Of a stretch of 64,000 nucleotides of DNA, positions 43,431 through 49,143 are shown in pieces. The notes beneath the pieces were generated by a model that did not search any database, was not told the DNA's origin, and saw only the letters and a program-made list of their open reading frames with translations. Position numbers and translations under genes: made by a program. The stretch comes from a virus. The stretch lies in the IMG/VR virus record IMGVR_UViG_3300044675_001548, positions 1 to 64,000 of that record; one strand, 5' to 3'. Numbering within the stretch: position 1 is the first letter of the stretch; every line of letters begins with the position of its first letter.

Positions 43431-43586
43431 ATGAAATCAATACTTATGTACTTGTTTGCTACCCTAATGCTAGGGAGCTTCTCTGGATTATTAATGAGCT
43501 TTGGTAAAGATATGGTACAGCATATAGGATTTATGTCCTTATTCTGGGGTTGTATGCTTATGCCAATGCTTGGGAGTGCTGATTAG
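43431..43586 (+). CDS. Small two-TM protein, 51 aa (not in track)
   Basis: MKSILMYLFATLMLGSFSGLLMSFGKDMVQHIGFMSLFWGCMLMPMLGSAD, between motif copy 1 and a terminator. Confidence 0.65.
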   Translation: MKSILMYLFATLMLGSFSGLLMSFGKDMVQHIGFMSLFWGCMLMPMLGSAD

Positions 43587-43600
43587 CATTCCCTTTTTTT
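43572..43600 (+). terminator. Intrinsic terminator
   Basis: GGGAGTGCT-GATT-AGCATTCCC followed by T7. Confidence 0.85.
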
Positions 43601-43624
43601 CTTGTTGTAACAACTTGTTACTTA

Positions 43625-43730
43625 GTTTAAAAACTAAAATTTGCTAGCCTGTGTAGTGATAGATCAATCACTACCTATTAGAGAAAGAACCCCGCGGTAT
43701 GCTAGAAGGTTTAAGCCCTTGTTTTTTTTC
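43625..43730 (+). ncRNA. Candidate small structured RNA
   Basis: Follows motif copy 2; no ATG ORF; perfect GTAGTGAT/ATCACTAC hairpin inside a CTAGC/GCTAG stem; ends in a T tract. Confidence 0.4.
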
Positions 43731-43773
43731 TTCTTAACATCTTTGTACTCATAGTAAATTAAAATTTATTATT

Positions 43774-43842
43774 ATGATTACTTATGTTATAGTAGATGGT
43801 GTGTTAACCATCAAAGAATACTTAAAGAATGCAAATGCATAA
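43774..43842 (+). CDS. Micro-ORF, 22 aa (MITYVIVDGVLTIKEYLKNANA)
   Basis: Only ORF between motif copy 3 and the terminator at 43851. Confidence 0.55.
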   Translation: MITYVIVDGVLTIKEYLKNANA

Positions 43843-43850
43843 TTTTATTT

Positions 43851-43878
43851 AGAGAGCCAATAGAGCTCTCTTTTTTTT
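43851..43878 (+). terminator. Intrinsic terminator
   Basis: AGAGAGC-N7-GCTCTCT followed by a T tract. Confidence 0.8.
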
Positions 43879-43933
43879 CTTGTTTAAACATCTTTGTACT
43901 TACCATAAATATTAACCTTTAAAAATTTACGTT

Positions 43934-44236
43934 ATGAACAAGAATTTATCTTTTGGCTATTCTCACTTAGGATTCCACACATTAATTAAGTTAAATGCTA
44001 AGATAACTTCAGCTGCTGCTGAGTTACTTACAAAAACTTATGGTGTATGGACCAATGACAATGGCAAGTTTGGTTACAGAATAGAAGGGTGTTTAACCTC
44101 TGATAAAGTATATGCTTTCAGACAATCTTTATCTCTTGCTATCTTGGATTACAAAATAGAACAACTAGTTTCAAAGAAACTAAATATTCTAGGTGTACCA
44201 AGATATGTAGAGGCAGATTTAGAACAAGTATACTAA
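43934..44236 (+). CDS. Early hypothetical protein, 100 aa
   Basis: ORF track; bounded by motif copy and terminator. Confidence 0.75.
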   Translation: MNKNLSFGYSHLGFHTLIKLNAKITSAAAELLTKTYGVWTNDNGKFGYRIEGCLTSDKVYAFRQSLSLAILDYKIEQLVSKKLNILGVPRYVEADLEQVY

Positions 44237-44240
44237 ATCA

Positions 44241-44266
44241 GAGAGGGGTAACACCCTTTCTTTTTT
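44241..44266 (+). terminator. Intrinsic terminator
   Basis: GAGAGGG-GTAACA-CCCTTTC followed by T6. Confidence 0.75.
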
Positions 44267-44306
44267 CCTGTATAACATCTTAATACTTAAATTAAAATTT
44301 AATATT

Positions 44307-44543
44307 ATGAAAAGAGAGAATCTTAAATGGGCTATTGCATCTGTTGCATTAGCCTTTGGTAGTGGATTATTTATAGGCTTTACCTATACATATCAACCAA
44401 GAGTAGAATCTCCAATGGGCAACAAGATAGAGTATTATCTTGAGCTACAAGGAGACAATGCTATTGTTGAGAGTAGATATGGTAGAGTATATAAATGCCA
44501 TCAAGACAGCATTTCAAGTGTATTAAATAAGGACAACCTGTAA
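44307..44543 (+). CDS. Early membrane-anchored protein, 78 aa
   Basis: N-terminal TM helix; bounded by motif copy and terminator. Confidence 0.75.
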   Translation: MKRENLKWAIASVALAFGSGLFIGFTYTYQPRVESPMGNKIEYYLELQGDNAIVESRYGRVYKCHQDSISSVLNKDNL

Positions 44544-44560
44544 TGGGTTGTTCTTTTTTT
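44531..44560 (+). terminator. Intrinsic terminator
   Basis: GGACAACC-N7-GGTTGTTC followed by T7. Confidence 0.8.
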
Positions 44561-44595
44561 CATCTTGCTCCGCAGCTTAAGCATCTTTATACTTA

Positions 44596-44706
44596 TATGG
44601 ATAATAATTATTATTATTTAAAACAGCTGTTATGGTTTGGCCTCTACATAACATAAGCTGGTACAAAGCCGCCAACTCCTGTGTAAAAGCAGGAGTTATT
44701 ATTTTT
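44596..44706 (+). ncRNA. Candidate small structured RNA
   Basis: Follows motif copy 6; CAGCT-GTTATG...CATAAC-ATA-AGCTG hairpin, then AACTCCTG/CAGGAGTT terminator hairpin. Confidence 0.4.
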
Positions 44707-44737
44707 CTTGTTAAACATCTTAATACTTATATTAAAT

Positions 44738-45021
44738 TGTTCTTGTCCAAGCAGGTAAACACAATCAGTTATACTGAGCGTGTGGATACTATACCAAGAT
44801 AATGTTATGTGAAGTACAGTAACATATAGAGATTATCAAACTCAAGGATTGCAACCTTGCAAGAACACAACAACTAGTGGGGGCAAACTCTGTGATAGAA
44901 CTTTATAAGTTCTTAGGGTGCCAGTTATTACACGTGTGTAATTAGGGCGGGTGAAGCCACAGGGTGACATCTCTACCAAAGTGAGAGAACACCTTAGCGG
45001 GATGCTAGGGTGTTCATTTTT
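44738..45021 (+). ncRNA. Structured ncRNA, about 280 nt, with a tRNA-shaped 5' domain
   Basis: 8-bp closing stem TGTTCTTG/CAAGAACA; T-arm-like CAAGG-ATTGCAA-CCTTG; several internal hairpins; 12-bp terminator at 44987-45015; no + strand ORF. Confidence 0.65.
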
Positions 45022-45060
45022 CTTATTAAACATCTTATAACTTAAGTTAAATTAAATACA

Positions 45061-45177
45061 ATGAATACAATATGTTATATCAGAGAGTGCATCAGGAGAA
45101 AAGAGTTTTATCCTGAATGGCTCATAATAAACATAGCAGTAGATGCTATTGTAGTTTATTTAGCATTGAAATATTAG
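45061..45177 (+). CDS. Micro-ORF, 38 aa, with C-terminal TM
   Basis: MNTICYIRECIRRKEFYPEWLIINIAVDAIVVYLALKY; follows motif copy 8 and ends in terminator 45162-45193. Confidence 0.6.
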   Translation: MNTICYIRECIRRKEFYPEWLIINIAVDAIVVYLALKY

Positions 45178-45215
45178 TTCAATGCTTTTTTTTGTAATCT
45201 TTAAATCTATATTAT

Positions 45216-45404
45216 ATGAAAGCTTTTGGATTATTTAACATGTTTGCATGCTATGCATGTACAATCATGAGTGTTACTAGTGTAGTATATCATACTGCAT
45301 TTAGTAGAGATTATGGTACTGCTGCTATACTAGCTTTAGCAGGAGGTGCTATGTTTATCATAGCAAGAACTCTACACAATGAATGGAGACAAGGGAAGCT
45401 TTAA
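45216..45404 (+). CDS. Small two-TM protein, 62 aa
   Basis: ORF track; terminator at 45392-45417. Confidence 0.7.
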   Translation: MKAFGLFNMFACYACTIMSVTSVVYHTAFSRDYGTAAILALAGGAMFIIARTLHNEWRQGKL

Positions 45405-45459
45405 GCTTCTCTTTTTTCTTTAACATCTTTTTACTAGTATTAATTTAAAACTATATATT

Positions 45460-45720
45460 ATGGACAAGAAAATATTGTTAGAACTGAGACGTGAGCTATT
45501 AGACAAAGTAAACAGAAATAGCACTAAAGAAGATTTAGTTGCTCTCATAGAAGAAGTTTCAAAGAAGATGCATCAGTTATACATAGCTGAAAAACTAGAT
45601 GAACAAATTGCTACACTAGAAGTAGAAGGTAAAACCTATAGAGACCTATGTGAGCTATCTGATTTAAGAGCTTCTAGAGCACATCTTCAAGAGGCTATGG
45701 AGAGTAGCACAGGGGAGTAA
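45460..45720 (+). CDS. Early coiled-coil protein, 86 aa
   Basis: ORF track; terminator AGGGGA-GTAA-TCCCCT at 45711-45733. Confidence 0.75.
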   Translation: MDKKILLELRRELLDKVNRNSTKEDLVALIEEVSKKMHQLYIAEKLDEQIATLEVEGKTYRDLCELSDLRASRAHLQEAMESSTGE

Positions 45721-45815
45721 TCCCCTTTTTTTTCTTTTCTCATTTTGCTACGCAGCTTATGGATACAAACATCTTTTTACTTAAATGGATTATTAACCAT
45801 TTAAACTTTTAATTT

Positions 45816-46136
45816 ATGTTGTTTACAGAAACAAAAAGTATGGCCGATTTCTGTGCTGAAATTGGTAGTGTTAACCAAGATGGGAAGCCTGTATATGTGC
45901 TCCGAACCAACAATGACAAAAACCATAAGAATTATGGTAAACGTCATATTGTGTTCAGAGATGCCACAAATGCCAAGGCTGCCATTGCCTCTAAGCTTTC
46001 AGCAGAAGAGGTGGCTGACCCTACCAAGTTGCAAGTGTCTTGGTTTGAAGACGCTGCATCAGACAGAGAAGGGTACATGGTACACGGCATAGGTGTTGCG
46101 GCATCCTATGACGAAGTTGAGATTGTTATTGGCTAA
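45816..46136 (+). CDS. Early hypothetical protein, 106 aa
   Basis: ORF track; bounded by motif copy 10 and a terminator. Confidence 0.75.
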   Translation: MLFTETKSMADFCAEIGSVNQDGKPVYVLRTNNDKNHKNYGKRHIVFRDATNAKAAIASKLSAEEVADPTKLQVSWFEDAASDREGYMVHGIGVAASYDEVEIVIG

Positions 46137-46149
46137 CAAGCTCAATGGG

Positions 46150-46188
46150 ATAATACAGGTAACGGGAGTGTTGCCTGTATTATTTTTT
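46150..46188 (+). terminator. Intrinsic terminator
   Basis: ATAATACAGGTAAC-N6-GTTGCCTGTATTAT followed by a T tract. Confidence 0.85.
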
Positions 46189-46645
46189 GTCTTTTCATTT
46201 TGTTATCACAGCTTATGGAAACATCTTTCTACTGAATTGGGTATTTAACCACAATCCAGTAGAAAAAGGCTTTGGCCTTTGGTCATCAGTCTACGGTCAT
46301 ACAGCCTATTCACAGTTAGTGCATACCGGTCATAGGAGGATACCTGAATTATGTGTAGCAAATGTAATTTTGTGGTAAATATTTTTAGGATAAGTGTGCA
46401 TGAAAGTGGGTGTGAGTAATAAACACTCCATCAATATTTGGTCATGACCTTGGTCACAGAATCAGTCAACAGCCTCATACAATATAGTATATATGGCTAT
46501 TACAATAACCATACTACACACACTCTTAGTCTTACACTTATCATTACTACTACTATATATATTAGTATTAGTTAGTGTTAGACAGCAATATCTTCCGGAA
46601 TTAGTTTTCCGCCACTATATATGATTATTAACCTGATTAAAACTT

Positions 46646-46960
46646 ATGATGATGAACTATCAATTAGAACAACTTAAACAATCTCATAGACCAGAGAATA
46701 AAAGGTTTAATGGTAAACTCAATGAAAGAAGTAGCACATATGAAACTAGAAAAAGAACTAGACCATGGGATAACTGTTGGTTTAGTAATAAACCACATAT
46801 TATTAATCTTACTGTAGAAGAAGCAGTAAATAAGTATCCGGATTATATTCTGTGGTGCTATAAAAACTTAAGTATTAAATGGTCTACACATACAGTAAGA
46901 TTAATTGAAAGTAAGGTTAAAAGACCTGTGTACAATACTACTATTGTTACTATGGGTTAA
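46646..46960 (+). CDS. Hypothetical protein with exonuclease-X-C-terminal-like motif
   Basis: LTVEEAVNKYPDYILWC. Confidence 0.6.
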   Translation: MMMNYQLEQLKQSHRPENKRFNGKLNERSSTYETRKRTRPWDNCWFSNKPHIINLTVEEAVNKYPDYILWCYKNLSIKWSTHTVRLIESKVKRPVYNTTIVTMG

Positions 46961-46969
46961 TTTATATTA

Positions 46970-47757
46970 CCACAAGGTTTCAGGCATAACCTCTCATTCT
47001 GTAAAGCAGAGGTTGACTTGTGGTTTATTTACTCTCATCCAAGCAGGTATTGTGAGGGTACTAAATTGACTATTAGTCCAAAGGATATTATGTTGAAGCA
47101 TAGATTTGCATTAGACAGCTGACTGATTAAACTAATAGTTAATTTATTATTTACTCTCATCCAATTGCAGGAAGGAATCTTTTCCAACCTTAGAGAAAAG
47201 AGATGACAAAACACTTGACAATAATCCTTATGGTGAGAATAGTAGTGTTCAAGGGTTGCAACCTTGTGAGAGTACAAAGAATGCTTCAGCAATTAATATA
47301 TTATTTAATTGGTTATAAATAAAAAAGCATTCTGCAAATGAAAGGCTACTACAGCAATATTTACTTTATAGGAAATAAGTTAATAGTAGCCTGGTTAATG
47401 CACCATTCCTGATTCCCAAGGTCAGGCAGTTGTGATAACACTAATAACCACTCTTGAAACTAGAGATAAAATAGCTTAGACTAAGGGTTATATACACTTT
47501 CAATGTAGTGTAGTAGTATTATTACAACTGAGTGCAGAGGGGCCAAAAATATTGGTGTGAAGAATACTTCAGCACAAAATCTATAAACTACAATCAGAAC
47601 AAGGTTCTCTTATGAGAACTTAACCAGGGAAGGTGTCTGTGTCTAAGTAATTAGGCAGGTTTTTAGATAGTATTCTGTTATGCACCAAGGACCTGCCTTC
47701 CGAAAGGGGGCAGGTACCTTCCCACAATTAATTAGTAACCAATTAAATTTATATATT
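46970..47757 (+). ncRNA. Large structured ncRNA or ncRNA array upstream of the DUF2828 gene
   Basis: About 790 nt without a credible ORF; stems at 46970-47023, 47030-47060, 47152-47274 (tRNA-shaped), 47278-47334, 47343-47393, 47427-47530, 47552-47688, 47691-47715. Confidence 0.65.
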
Positions 47758-49143
47758 ATGTCTAGATTAGTCAATGCAACAAGACAGTATGATGCTTCAA
47801 CTGCTAATGGAGCTGTCACACATTCAACTAGTTTGAATTACTGTTTGGATTTGTTTTTCTTAGCAGGGGCAAGTAGAAATATGTCAGAGTCTGATATTAT
47901 ACTTGCTTTTGACCGTGCACGTGGTCAGAATAAGAACTTGGCATACAAGATTCTGTTCTGGGCGCGTGATGCAAGAGGTGGTGCAGGTGAGAAGAGATTC
48001 TTCCAAGTGGTTATGGAACATATTAGTAAGATTGATTCTTATGATTATGATCAATTAGCCATACATATACCTGAGTTTGGGTATTGGAAGGATGTATTCA
48101 AGATTGAAAAACCAAATGAGAACAATCTCAATTGGTTGGCTATTCAACTTGAAGAATCACCTAATGCTAACCTCTTAGCTAAATGGTTTCCGAGAAAAGG
48201 TCAGTGGTTTTCAGCCATGCACAAGTATCTTAAACTAACTCCAAAAGAGTTTAGAAAGAAAATTGTGGGTATGACCAAAGTAGTGGAAACTCAAATGTGT
48301 GCCAATGAATGGGATTTGATCAATTATGGTCAAGTGCCTTCAGTTGCTATGAACAAGCATAGACAAGCATTCTTTAACCGTGATGGTAAAAGATATGCAG
48401 AGTATATTGCTGATGTTCAGGCTGGTAAGCAGAAGATCAATGCTTCAGTATTATTTCCTCACCAACTGTATCAAGCAGTTTGCAATGGGGAGTATATTGA
48501 TGCTGTAGAAGCTCAGTGGGATGCTTTGCCTGATTACATGGCTGGTAGCACAGAAAGGATTATTCCTGTATGTGATGTCAGTGGTAGTATGACAGGGCTT
48601 CCTATGGATGTATCTATTTCTTTGGGGATTTATATCTCTGAAAGAAACCAAGGTATATTCAAGGATGCATTCATAACTTTCTCAGAGAGACCTGAGATGA
48701 ATTACTTAAAAGGTAGTTTGTCTGAGAGAATGAGACAGTTGATAAATGCTAGCTGGGGTTATTCTACAGATCTTCAAGCCACATTTGACTTGATTCTTAA
48801 CAGTGCTGTTAGAGAATCATTACCAGAGTCTGAGATGCCTACTAAAATTCTTATCATTAGTGATATGGAATTTAATAGTGCATGTCAAGGTGTTAGCAAC
48901 CTAGATTCTATTAGGGCAAAGTATTCTGATGCAGGATACAAAATGCCTGAAATAGTATTTTGGAATGTTAACGGTAGACTTGGTAATGTTCCTGCATCTA
49001 GTAAAGATTCAGGCATTGGCTTGGTATCAGGCTTCAGTCCTTCAATTTTGAAGGCAGTATTGCAAGGTGAGATTTATTCTCCTGAGCAATTGATGCTTGA
49101 TGCTGTGGACACTGCACGGTATTCCTGTATTGGAGTTGAATAA
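47758..49143 (+). CDS. DUF2828-family TROVE/Ro60-like protein with C-terminal vWA domain, 461 aa (start moved to MSRLV)
   Basis: LDLFF..GASR, WARDARGGAGE, IPEFGYWKD, AKWFPR, VETQM, VPSVAM, MIDAS DVSGSM, TFS..P, WG.STD, IISDMEF, IVFWN. Confidence 0.85.
   Translation: MSRLVNATRQYDASTANGAVTHSTSLNYCLDLFFLAGASRNMSESDIILAFDRARGQNKNLAYKILFWARDARGGAGEKRFFQVVMEHISKIDSYDYDQLAIHIPEFGYWKDVFKIEKPNENNLNWLAIQLEESPNANLLAKWFPRKGQWFSAMHKYLKLTPKEFRKKIVGMTKVVETQMCANEWDLINYGQVPSVAMNKHRQAFFNRDGKRYAEYIADVQAGKQKINASVLFPHQLYQAVCNGEYIDAVEAQWDALPDYMAGSTERIIPVCDVSGSMTGLPMDVSISLGIYISERNQGIFKDAFITFSERPEMNYLKGSLSERMRQLINASWGYSTDLQATFDLILNSAVRESLPESEMPTKILIISDMEFNSACQGVSNLDSIRAKYSDAGYKMPEIVFWNVNGRLGNVPASSKDSGIGLVSGFSPSILKAVLQGEIYSPEQLMLDAVDTARYSCIGVE

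What the first reader, a model, noticed from the sequence alone, without database searches (positions are those of the whole stretch)
44738..47274. Two paralogous tRNA-shaped RNA domains with a non-canonical T-loop (44738-44867 and 47152-47274), plus a mini copy at 47030-47060
Both read: 8-bp closing stem, then T-CCAA(TT)GCAGG, two variable hairpins, a 5-bp/7-nt hairpin CAAGG-RTTGCAA-CCTTG stacked on the 3' strand of the closing stem, then CAA. The closing stems differ fully yet pair (TGTTCTTG/CAAGAACA vs TACTCTCA/TGAGAGTA), which is covariation inside one genome. The geometry copies a tRNA acceptor + T-arm as in tmRNA or Y RNA, but the loop is TTGCAA rather than TTCGAA and there is no CCA. 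The 47030 mini copy keeps only the stem plus TCCAAGCAGG, pointing to that loop as a protein-binding site.
Basis: partly seen in the sequence, partly recalled or inferred. Interest (0 to 1): 0.8.

Follow-up and report, generated by a model that had tools for sequence, protein, structure and literature searches.

The report
Pseudoknotted RNA module family in phages
The two "tRNA-shaped" stretches are real members of a widespread, uncatalogued family of folded RNA modules in freshwater crAss-like phages, with a nearly invariant pseudoknotted core and a hypervariable insert. They are not tRNA or Y-RNA mimics, they are not tied to the DUF2828 protein, and their job is still unknown.

Summary
Both copies (44738-44868, 47152-47275) belong to an RNA family absent from Rfam. 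I found 116 distinct versions in 146 fetched phage loci.

- **Architecture:** the core is almost invariant: an 8-bp closing stem P1, a joiner J, and a 5-bp/7-nt hairpin P3. It surrounds a hypervariable insert of 5-156 nt in 57 unrelated classes.
- **Covariation:** P1 and P3 covary (99.5% paired; 8 of 13 pairs changed on both sides).
- **New helix:** J (GCAG) pairs with the P3 loop (UUGC). C-G to U-A swaps occur in five sequence backgrounds, so the core is an H-type pseudoknot.
- **Not a tRNA, tmRNA or Y RNA:** no ARAGORN or Rfam hit, no T-loop consensus, no YrlA motif.
- **Not tied to DUF2828:** 0 of 10 near-complete element-bearing genomes encode it, and a DUF2828-bearing genome lacks the element.
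- **Mini copy:** it is a recombination remnant.
- **Context:** elements lie in non-coding leaders co-oriented with the genes, usually 50-200 nt upstream of a twister-like ribozyme candidate.

Function is unproven. I favour a cis-acting fold that insulates or stabilises RNA (0.35). A new self-cleaving ribozyme (0.2) and a trans-acting scaffold RNA (0.2) remain open. Earlier scan notes reported twister-like modules on other phages, not this family.

The parts
44738..44868 (+). Family A element, copy 1. P1 44738-44745 with 44860-44867; joiner J 44746-44755; insert with two hairpins 44756-44842; P3 hairpin 44843-44859 (loop 44848-44854); conserved C at 44868. Pseudoknot: J 44751-44754 (GCAG) with loop 44849-44852 (UUGC).
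   Evidence: Covariance-model hit of 34.1 bits. The insert class is conserved in 9 loci with compensatory changes in its second hairpin.
47152..47275 (+). Family A element, copy 2. P1 47152-47159 with 47267-47274; long-type joiner J 47160-47171; insert 47172-47249; P3 47250-47266 (loop 47255-47261); conserved C at 47275. Pseudoknot: J 47165-47170 with loop 47256-47261.
   Evidence: Covariance-model hit of 39.1 bits. Synteny with relatives breaks exactly at 47275/47276.
47030..47060 (+). Mini copy: P1 5' strand, J, 5 nt and a P1'-like strand (one G.U pair), with no P3. Read as the leftover 5' core of an L120-type element whose 3' core is now used by copy 2.
   Evidence: Window 46966-47051 aligns to L120 247-332, and 47249 onward aligns to L120 444 onward, which brackets L120's single element. 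Only about three comparable P3-less copies were found among more than 120 elements. Covariance-model hit of 33.4 bits.
44674..45015 (+). ORF-less cassette holding copy 1. It runs: terminator-like hairpin 44674-44697, promoter-like motif 44714-44729, element 44738-44868, a further structured stretch 44869-44986, terminator-like hairpin 44987-45015.
   Evidence: Terminator scan found 18 sites against 1.7 expected. The promoter-like motif occurs 5 times on the + strand between 43.9 and 45.8 kb, against 0.68 expected in the whole window. The only ORF here (44632-44802) overlaps the terminator and promoter, so I do not consider it credible.
47396..47542 (+). Twister-like ribozyme candidate ('module C') 122 nt downstream of copy 2. 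Predicted scissile U47396-A47397; P2 47399-47403 with 47532-47536; P4 47408-47412 with 47422-47426, with a 9-nt loop at 47413-47421; variable P5 47429-47528; G-run 47539-47542. This is context, not part of family A.
   Evidence: 68 of 74 copies are complete, and P2, P4 and P5 covary. It lies downstream of family A in 60 of 63 cases. Rfam does not hit it.

Best explanation
Family A is a genuine structured RNA family not found in Rfam release 15. It is transcribed from the + strand as part of the non-coding leaders and intercistronic RNA at the start of the rightward gene block of a freshwater crAss-like phage group.

Its functional unit is the nearly invariant core, not the variable arm. The core has an 8-bp closing stem P1. 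A 5-bp hairpin P3 joins P1's 3' strand with no linker. A 4-6-bp pseudoknot forms between the joiner (GCAG) and the P3 loop (UUGC).

I think the core most likely works in cis and without a dedicated phage protein. In this reading it is a compact, mechanically stable knot that insulates neighbouring RNA segments and blocks exonucleases in transcripts that are cut by nearby twister-like ribozymes.

Shown: the fold, its conservation, its strand, its context, and its independence from DUF2828.

Inferred: coaxial stacking of the helices, transcription in vivo, and the insulating or stabilising role.
For: - **Fold:** P1 and P3 covary. Pseudoknot pair J-C:loop-G switches to U:A in L036b, L225, L237, L230 and L232/L047b, across different insert classes, with 100% of cells paired. 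RNAalifold recovers P1 and P3 independently.
- **RNA of the + strand:** in P1 variants, internal one-sided changes are G.U wobbles; other mismatches sit at pairs 1-2. Inserts fold better on the + strand in 37 of 55 classes. Elements are co-oriented with flanking ORFs.
- **The core is what matters:** 57 unrelated insert classes, a 5-nt insert in L016, and no common insert helix. About 40 core positions are essentially invariant.
- **Internal to transcripts:** few same-strand terminators lie within 150 nt (9% upstream, 3% downstream).
- **Placement relative to ORFs:** elements lie just after stop codons, or 26-34 nt before start codons, in a subset of cases.
- **Ordered arrangement with a ribozyme candidate:** a twister-like module lies downstream in 60 of 63 cases. 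The predicted cut is 2-5 nt after the element in 3 cases and 50-200 nt after it in 42 of 58.
- **No conserved protein neighbour:** the best neighbour cluster is present in 25 of 81 loci. There is no DUF2828 in 10 genomes.
- **Weak expression hint:** RNA-library contigs from two studies contain the sister (L120-type) element.
Against: - No RNA ends were observed. Only contigs were available, and DNA carry-over in the RNA libraries cannot be excluded.
- In 55 of 58 cases, other hairpins lie between the element and the predicted twister cut. The element is therefore rarely the terminal structure.
- Near-perfect sequence conservation of both helices and loops is more than a simple roadblock should need. 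It fits a catalytic or ligand- or protein-binding core at least as well.
- Copy 1 sits in its own promoter-to-terminator cassette with no ORF. That looks like a free-standing small RNA gene.
- A complete relative (G011) has no element, so the element is dispensable.
Confidence: 0.35

Rival explanations
1. Family A is a new class of small self-cleaving ribozyme. The invariant joiner and P3 loop form the active site through the pseudoknot, the variable insert is a dispensable peripheral arm, and the RNA cuts early transcripts next to twister-type ribozymes.
For: - The core is invariant at unpaired positions and has a compact pseudoknot.
- The peripheral region is freely variable, including a core-only form.
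- It lies close to, and in a fixed order with, a twister-like candidate.
- Bacterial and phage ribozymes tend to cluster, and that tendency is how three classes were discovered (PMC6765202).
- The joiner resembles the twister P4-loop sequence and, like it, pairs through its 3' GC. This comparison relies on the twister sequence as I recall it, plus the fold description in PMC6154101.
Against: - No covariance model of any Rfam ribozyme family scores even about 11 bits on the element.
- No cleavage site can be named.
- No read ends are available.
- Most conserved motifs found near ribozymes have not turned out to be ribozymes (my recollection of the RAGATH motif studies).
Confidence: 0.2
2. Family A is a scaffold for trans-acting small RNAs. 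The tRNA-topology core gives stability or processing (for example by RNase P or RNase Z, or by a host RNA-binding protein). The hypervariable structured arm is the working part, such as a decoy or binder evolving in an arms race with host factors.
For: - A constant core with 57 unrelated, structured insert classes (mean z = -1.25).
- Inserts are not found outside elements.
- 0-3 copies per genome in a hypervariable accessory region, with synteny breaks at the element ends.
- Copy 1 has its own promoter-like motif and terminator and no ORF.
- Within an insert class the hairpins covary.
- The topology parallels the tRNA-like domain of tmRNA, and the pseudoknot sits where the tRNA elbow would be.
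Against: - Core-only elements exist, with a 5-nt insert.
- Most elements are internal to longer transcripts rather than bracketed by a promoter and a terminator.
- No significant antisense targets were found in the phage genome or in a candidate host MAG.
- No T-loop and no CCA, so recognition by tRNA enzymes is unsupported.
Confidence: 0.2
3. The core is a binding site for a conserved host or phage protein, or for a small ligand. It would be an operator, riboswitch-like or antitermination element that regulates downstream genes in cis.
For: - The unpaired positions and both helices are invariant.
- The element is located in leaders, in some cases 26-34 nt before a start codon.
- The surrounding region has many terminators that an antitermination RNA could override.
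Against: - Downstream genes differ between loci and share no family.
- There is no recognisable expression platform.
- The element is absent from a complete relative.
- No protein partner co-occurs with it.
Confidence: 0.12
4. It acts at the DNA level, as a recombination or mobility cassette (attC-like, MITE-like or retron-like). In this reading the conserved ends are recombination sites and the insert is cargo.
For: - Synteny breakpoints fall exactly at the element ends, and relatives have empty sites.
- Insert replacement left a core remnant, the mini copy.
- Decayed copies exist.
Against: - The genome has no reverse transcriptase and no tyrosine recombinase.
- Covariation includes a loop-joiner pseudoknot and G.U wobbles specific to the + strand. 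These make sense for RNA, not for terminal inverted repeats.
- The element has the same orientation as the surrounding genes.
- The cores are only 18 and 26 nt long.
Confidence: 0.07
5. It is a Y-RNA-like partner of the DUF2828 (TROVE/vWA-like) protein encoded downstream, as the first reader proposed testing.
For: - In this window, copy 2 lies 405 nt upstream of the DUF2828 gene and copy 1 lies 2.8 kb upstream, both on the same strand.
- PHROGs labels the protein family 'RNA-binding protein'.
Against: - 0 of 10 near-complete element-bearing genomes encode DUF2828, by protein search and by family search. The positive control works.
- Complete genome G011 has DUF2828 but no element.
- DUF2828 loci at 32-56% identity have no element.
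- The YrlA motif GNCGAAN0-1G is present in 0 of 116 elements.
Confidence: 0.03

Closest known systems
tRNA-like domain of tmRNA, and the tRNA-like module of bacterial Y RNAs (YrlA; PMC4201824)
   Same: The order of parts is the same: closing (acceptor-like) stem, short conserved 5' joiner, long variable middle, then a 5-bp/7-nt hairpin joined directly to the 3' strand of the closing stem. The joiner contacts the hairpin loop where the D-loop/T-loop contact would be.
   Different: - The loop (R-UUGCAA) does not fit the T-loop consensus.
- The contact is a 4-6-bp Watson-Crick pseudoknot.
- The closing stem has 8 bp.
- There is no CCA, no G3.U70, no tag reading frame and no Ro60-binding motif.
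- There are no ARAGORN or Rfam hits.
- There is no linkage to a TROVE protein.
Small self-cleaving ribozymes with loop-junction pseudoknots (twister, pistol; PMC6154101), and the RNA motifs found next to them
   Same: - A small core of invariant unpaired nucleotides held together by a hairpin-loop pseudoknot.
- A peripheral stem that varies freely.
- A location between small phage genes, next to a twister-like module.
- A joiner sequence that resembles the twister P4 loop.
   Different: - Only one pseudoknot is shown.
- The connectivity differs from pistol: the pseudoknot hairpin lies inside the closing stem.
- The Rfam ribozyme models do not match.
- No cleavage has been shown.
Exoribonuclease-resistant RNAs (xrRNAs) of flaviviruses and plant viruses (from my own knowledge)
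   Same: A compact junction-plus-pseudoknot fold with highly conserved nucleotides, acting in cis without protein to stop processive RNA decay. This is the mechanism I favour.
   Different: There is no sequence or demonstrated fold similarity. xrRNAs block the eukaryotic 5'-3' enzyme Xrn1. Resistance has not been tested here.
Abundant early long non-coding RNAs of the crAss-like phage phi14:2 (g004-g005 and g005-g006 intergenic regions; bioRxiv 10.1101/2020.03.07.982082)
   Same: Non-coding transcripts at the start of the rightward gene block of a crAss-like phage, with function unknown.
   Different: I did not compare the phi14:2 sequences. That paper describes no motif or structure.

Membership tests
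tRNA | Cloverleaf detectable by tRNA finders or the tRNA covariance model | tested here: not met
   ARAGORN finds 0 genes in the window and none at elements in 10 loci. Rfam gives no tRNA hit at E<=10 even on 96-146-nt slices.
tRNA | T-loop consensus (U54, pseudouridine 55, C56, purine 57, A58 in a 7-nt loop) | tested here: not met
   The loop is R-U-U-G-C-A-A in 115 of 116 elements, the other reading GUUGCCA. Position 1 is a purine and position 5 is C. Four to six loop bases pair with the joiner instead.
tRNA | 3' discriminator base followed by CCA, or a context for its addition | tested here: not met
   After P1 comes C (93%), then any base, then A (76%). No CCA is present.
tmRNA tRNA-like domain | tmRNA gene with a tag peptide, a canonical T-arm, and an alanine identity pair G3.U70 | tested here: not met
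   ARAGORN reports no tmRNA. Pair 3 of P1 is C-G in 83 of 86 sequences. Rfam gives no hit.
Y RNA / YrlA (PMC4201824) | 5' motif GNCGAAN0-1G for Ro60 binding | tested here: not met
   Present in 0 of 116 elements.
Y RNA / YrlA (PMC4201824) | Encoded within about 4 kb of a TROVE/Ro60 gene, on the same strand | tested here: not met
   This holds in the window only. 0 of 10 near-complete genomes with the element encode DUF2828 (control). G011 has the gene but not the element.
Twister ribozyme | P1-P2-P4 with two pseudoknots from the P4 loop and a U-A cleavage site; match to the Rfam models | tested here: not met
   For family A there is no model hit, only one pseudoknot, and no P2 or internal-loop equivalent. 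The neighbouring module C does show these features by manual mapping, but it also gets no model hit.
Pistol ribozyme | A pseudoknot between the loop of a 5' hairpin and the P2-P3 junction, with a G-U cleavage site opposite it | tested here: not met
   A loop-junction pseudoknot is present, but the hairpin lies inside the closing stem, on the 3' side. There is no Rfam hit.
H-type pseudoknot | Two helices in the order a, b, a', b', each supported by covariation | tested here: met
   - J:loop helix: 100% paired, pair CG 19 / UA 5.
- P3: compensatory variants U-A at pair 1, G-C at pair 3, A-U at pair 5.
Retron ncRNA / integron attC (DNA-level or RT-linked elements) | A cognate reverse transcriptase or tyrosine recombinase in the genome | tested here: not met
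   PF00078 and PF00589 are both absent from the 99%-complete genome, and the control genomes do give hits.

The most novel reading that the evidence does not exclude
Family A is a previously unrecognised class of self-cleaving ribozyme, or another protein-free catalytic or exonuclease-resistant RNA. Its core would be a closing stem plus an H-type pseudoknot, and it would work together with twister-type ribozymes to punctuate the early transcripts of crAss-like phages.
Probability: 0.2. Interest if true: 0.9.

Novelty: new variant of a known kind. Interest (0 to 1): 0.62.

Why it matters
- **A well-defined new motif.** crAss-like phages make abundant early non-coding RNAs whose roles are unknown (bioRxiv 10.1101/2020.03.07.982082). 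This family provides a covariation-proven 3-helix fold, more than 100 natural variants and ready-made compensatory mutants in that RNA space. It also has a fixed spatial relation to a ribozyme candidate.
- **What each outcome would mean.** If it cleaves itself, it is a new ribozyme class. If it blocks nucleases, it would be a phage counterpart of viral xrRNAs. If it is a scaffold, its 57 or more insert classes are a natural library of phage-evolved RNA domains.
- **A caution.** It shows that proximity to a TROVE-like gene in one genome can be coincidental.

Tried and rejected
- **Rfam:** the whole window at gathering threshold, then 4 kb and 96-146-nt slices at E<=10. Nothing relevant came up.
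- **ARAGORN:** no tRNA or tmRNA at any element.
- **Phage GenBank megablast** of 44000-48000: no match.
- **DUF2828 linkage:** rejected.
- **DUF2828 against PDB by sequence:** no Ro60 hit. I did not fold it.
- **Neighbour-gene clustering** with Pfam and PHROGs: no conserved or annotated partner.
- **Antisense targets of the inserts:** one 15-mer match in the genome is same-sense to the local gene. Nothing significant was found in the Chitinophagaceae MAG.
- **A common closing helix for the insert** (a 4-way, cloverleaf-like junction): 11 of 56 classes against 12% in shuffles, so rejected.
- **Inserts as free-standing modules elsewhere:** not found.
- **tRNA-Ala mimicry:** the joiner plus loop resemble the 3' half of a tRNA-Ala(UGC) anticodon arm. 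That arm type occurs in part of Bacteroidota, but the candidate host MAG has another type. I treat this as coincidence, since the pseudoknot explains both motifs.
- **A 2-bp mini-hairpin inside J**: it conflicts with the better-supported pseudoknot.
- **Retron or integron reading:** no RT and no integrase.
- **Bacterial genome scan:** only 3 hits, which look like phage contigs binned into MAGs — one of 117.9 kb; the 3.5-kb and 32.9-kb ones are inferred.
- **Metatranscriptome contigs**: parts without cover, and contig ends at the conserved cores, say nothing. No read ends were available.
- **Catalogue check:** the supplement of the IMG/VR structured-RNA catalogue (PMC10690425) is not held, so I could not check whether the motif is listed there.
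- **Element as the terminal structure at the twister cut:** true in only 3 of 58 cases.
Full report
**1.

Each full copy reads as follows:
- an 8-nt strand P1;
- a joiner J, which is UCCAAGCAGG in copy 1 and carries an extra UU in copy 2;
- a variable stretch;
- the hairpin P3 (5 bp, 7-nt loop R-UUGCAA);
- the complement of P1, with no linker after P3;
- then a C.

The 17-nt P3 pattern occurs twice in the window against 0.26 expected. Both occurrences are on the + strand, and there are only two in the whole 118-kb virus record. RNAfold recovers P1 and P3 in both copies.

**2. It is a large family**

In the fetched DNA I count 116 distinct elements in 146 loci. Copy number is one to three per near-complete genome of about 115 kb.

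The core is almost invariant. P1 is usually UACUCUCA with its complement. J comes in a 10-nt form (about 75%) and a 12-nt form. P3 is as in the window.

A covariance model built from 23 elements retrieved 88 matches. On that alignment 99.5% of cells are paired, and 8 of 13 pairs show changes on both sides. No shuffle out of 500 reaches this, and shifted registers fall to 35-57% paired.

In the P1 variants listed by script, internal one-sided changes are G.U wobbles as read on the + strand, and other mismatches sit at pairs 1-2. The elements are co-oriented with their flanking ORFs. This is therefore an RNA of the + strand.

**3. A third helix: the core is a pseudoknot**

The invariant GCAG of J is complementary to UUGC in the P3 loop. 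To test this I scanned for elements whose loop lacks the G or the C. I then looked at their joiners.
- Where the loop G is A, the facing J position is U instead of C in 8 of 9 elements.
- This is seen in L036b, L225, L237, L230 and L232/L047b, which carry five different insert classes. These are therefore independent events.
- L237 differs from its sister L061 essentially by this double change.
- Every element with the standard loop has GCA in J.

On a mixed alignment, the pseudoknot helix is 100% paired. One pair reads C-G in 19 sequences and U-A in 5. The outer pair of the long-J form tolerates U.G.

The order of strands is J, P3 5' strand, loop, P3 3' strand, which is an H-type pseudoknot, and P1 closes the whole. 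That the three helices stack into one rod is my inference.

**4. The insert is hypervariable**

Inserts range from 5 to 156 nt and fall into 57 classes with no detectable similarity.
- They do not share a closing helix (11 of 56 classes against 12% in shuffles). A cloverleaf-like four-way junction is therefore not a family feature.
- They are more structured than shuffled sequence (mean z = -1.25), and more stable on the + strand in 37 of 55 classes.
- They are not found outside elements.
- Within copy 1's class, the second hairpin shows compensatory changes.
- A core-only element exists (L016, 49 nt).

**5. What it is not**

*tRNA and tmRNA.* ARAGORN finds no tRNA or tmRNA. No Rfam family reaches even E = 10 on 96-146-nt slices. 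The loop breaks the T-loop consensus, and no CCA follows the element.

*Y RNA.* The YrlA Ro60-binding motif described in PMC4201824 is absent from all 116 elements.

*DUF2828 partner.* The ORF at 47680-49143 matches DUF2828 plus DUF7788 in Pfam, and PHROGs calls the family 'RNA-binding protein'. It is not a partner:
- Ten near-complete genomes with the element lack it by protein search, and five of them also lack it by family search. The same search finds it in G000 and G011.
- G011, which is 100% complete and carries DUF2828, has no element.
- More distant DUF2828 loci have none.

*Retron or integron.* No reverse transcriptase or tyrosine recombinase is encoded.

**6. Context**

*The phage.* It has a portal protein, a terminase large subunit and a major head protein. 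It also has a 3829-aa ORF with a DFDVD motif. That motif is the signature named for crAss-like virion RNA polymerases in bioRxiv 10.1101/2020.03.07.982082. The same paper reports abundant early non-coding RNAs of unknown function in phi14:2.

*The cassette array.* The elements lie at the start of the rightward gene block. From 43.5 to 46.2 kb there is an array of cassettes, each with a terminator-like hairpin, a promoter-like motif and a small ORF. The scan found 18 terminators against 1.7 expected, and the motif occurs 5 times against 0.68 expected. Copy 1 occupies one such cassette that has no ORF. The motif ends 8 nt before P1, and a terminator follows about 120 nt after the element.

*Typical placement.* Copy 2 lies in the 720-nt non-coding leader of the DUF2828 gene. 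That placement is the typical one: across loci, few same-strand terminators lie near elements. No protein family is a constant neighbour.

*Synteny.* Synteny with relatives breaks exactly at the element ends. Several relatives have an ORF running straight into the next module, with no element in between.

*The mini copy.* It aligns with the 5' core of L120's single element, and L120's 3' core aligns with that of copy 2. The mini copy is therefore best read as a recombination remnant. P3-less copies are rare.

**7. A ribozyme candidate next door**

In 63 of 124 element contexts, a second conserved module lies nearby on the same strand. It is downstream of the element in 60 of those 63. By manual mapping it has these parts:
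- a U-A-A site;
- a 5-bp P2 that covaries (58 copies of one form, 7 of a compensated form);
- a covarying P4 with a 9-nt loop;
- loop CCC and GG that can pair with a downstream G-run and an upstream CC;
- a variable stem in the P5 position.

Of 74 copies, 68 are complete. This matches the description of twister in PMC6154101. The Rfam models do not score it, so it remains a candidate.

In the window it spans 47396-47542. The predicted cut lies 2-5 nt after the element in 3 cases and 50-200 nt after it in 42 of 58, with other hairpins in between. Ribozymes in bacteria and phages tend to cluster (PMC6765202).

**8. Expression**

The region is held nearly complete by at least 18 lake-water DNA runs. 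RNA-library contigs from two studies contain the sister (L120-type) element. Because these are contigs, neither ends nor strand can be read, and DNA carry-over is possible. This is a weak hint only.

**9. Mechanism**

The fold, strand, conservation pattern and context are shown. What the RNA does is inferred.
- **Favoured (0.35):** a cis-acting, protein-independent knot that insulates or stabilises RNA in ribozyme-cut early transcripts.
- **Against it:** the element is rarely the terminal structure, the sequence is more conserved than a roadblock needs, and copy 1 looks like a free-standing RNA gene.
- **Rivals:** a new self-cleaving ribozyme (0.2), a trans-acting scaffold whose variable arm does the work (0.2), a protein or ligand operator (0.12), a DNA-level cassette (0.07), and a DUF2828 Y-RNA (0.03).

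**10. Novelty**

The motif is not in Rfam 15. I could not check the IMG/VR catalogue of candidate structured RNAs because its supplement is not held.

Conserved RNA modules next to phage ribozymes are a known kind of thing. This fold and family are new to the resources I could search.

Earlier notes of this scan describe twister-like modules in other phages, and that prompted my look at module C. None of them describes family A on other DNA.

Noticed in passing
window 47396-47542 (+); also 74 copies in fetched loci, e.g. L183:7082-7190, L011:3520-3640: A twister-like ribozyme candidate with an inserted P5 stem. P2, P4 and P5 covary. It is widespread in these phages and gets no hit from the Rfam twister models.
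   Followed up: partly
window 43500-46250 (+): An array of small-gene cassettes, each with a terminator-like hairpin plus T-run, then a promoter-like motif (AACATCTT, 5 nt, ACTTA), then a short ORF. The scan found 18 terminator-like sites against 1.7 expected.
   Followed up: partly
window 44869-44986 (+): A GC-richer structured stretch between copy 1 and its terminator, with no ORF. Parts of it recur in L016, L034 and L174. Function unknown.
   Followed up: partly
window 46966-47028 (+): A hairpin module directly upstream of the mini copy, found in 24 loci. Its inner part resembles the 5' core of family A (CUCUCAUCC, 4 nt, AAGCAGG).
   Followed up: no
The first recurs in 14 loci. They fill the space between copy 2, the twister-like module and the DUF2828 start codon.
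   Followed up: no
L240:4277-4415, L200:1179-1331 (-), L221:6312-6472, L252:12572-12700: A diverged subtype of family A. It has the same P1 and P3 stems but a different joiner (starting UGCAA) and a different loop (AUUAGAA or AUUGUAA). Joiner-loop complementarity is partly kept, in a shifted register.
   Followed up: partly
L003:9033-9152: One insert contains a canonical T-arm-like hairpin (5-bp stem, loop UUCAAAU). ARAGORN calls no tRNA there.
   Followed up: partly
L215 (JBIPNK010000148.1, a 117.9-kb contig): A phage-sized contig carrying the element is binned into a Chitinophagaceae MAG from a lake. This is a weak hint at a Bacteroidota host.
   Followed up: no
window 45816-46136 (+): A 106-aa ORF of unknown family is covered by RNA-library contigs from three separate studies at 99% identity.
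   Followed up: no
G000:C1:85900-97389 (-), outside the window: A 3829-aa ORF with a DFDVD motif at residue 2487. It is flanked by ORFs of 1943 and 2267 aa, as expected for a crAss-like virion RNA polymerase block.
   Followed up: partly
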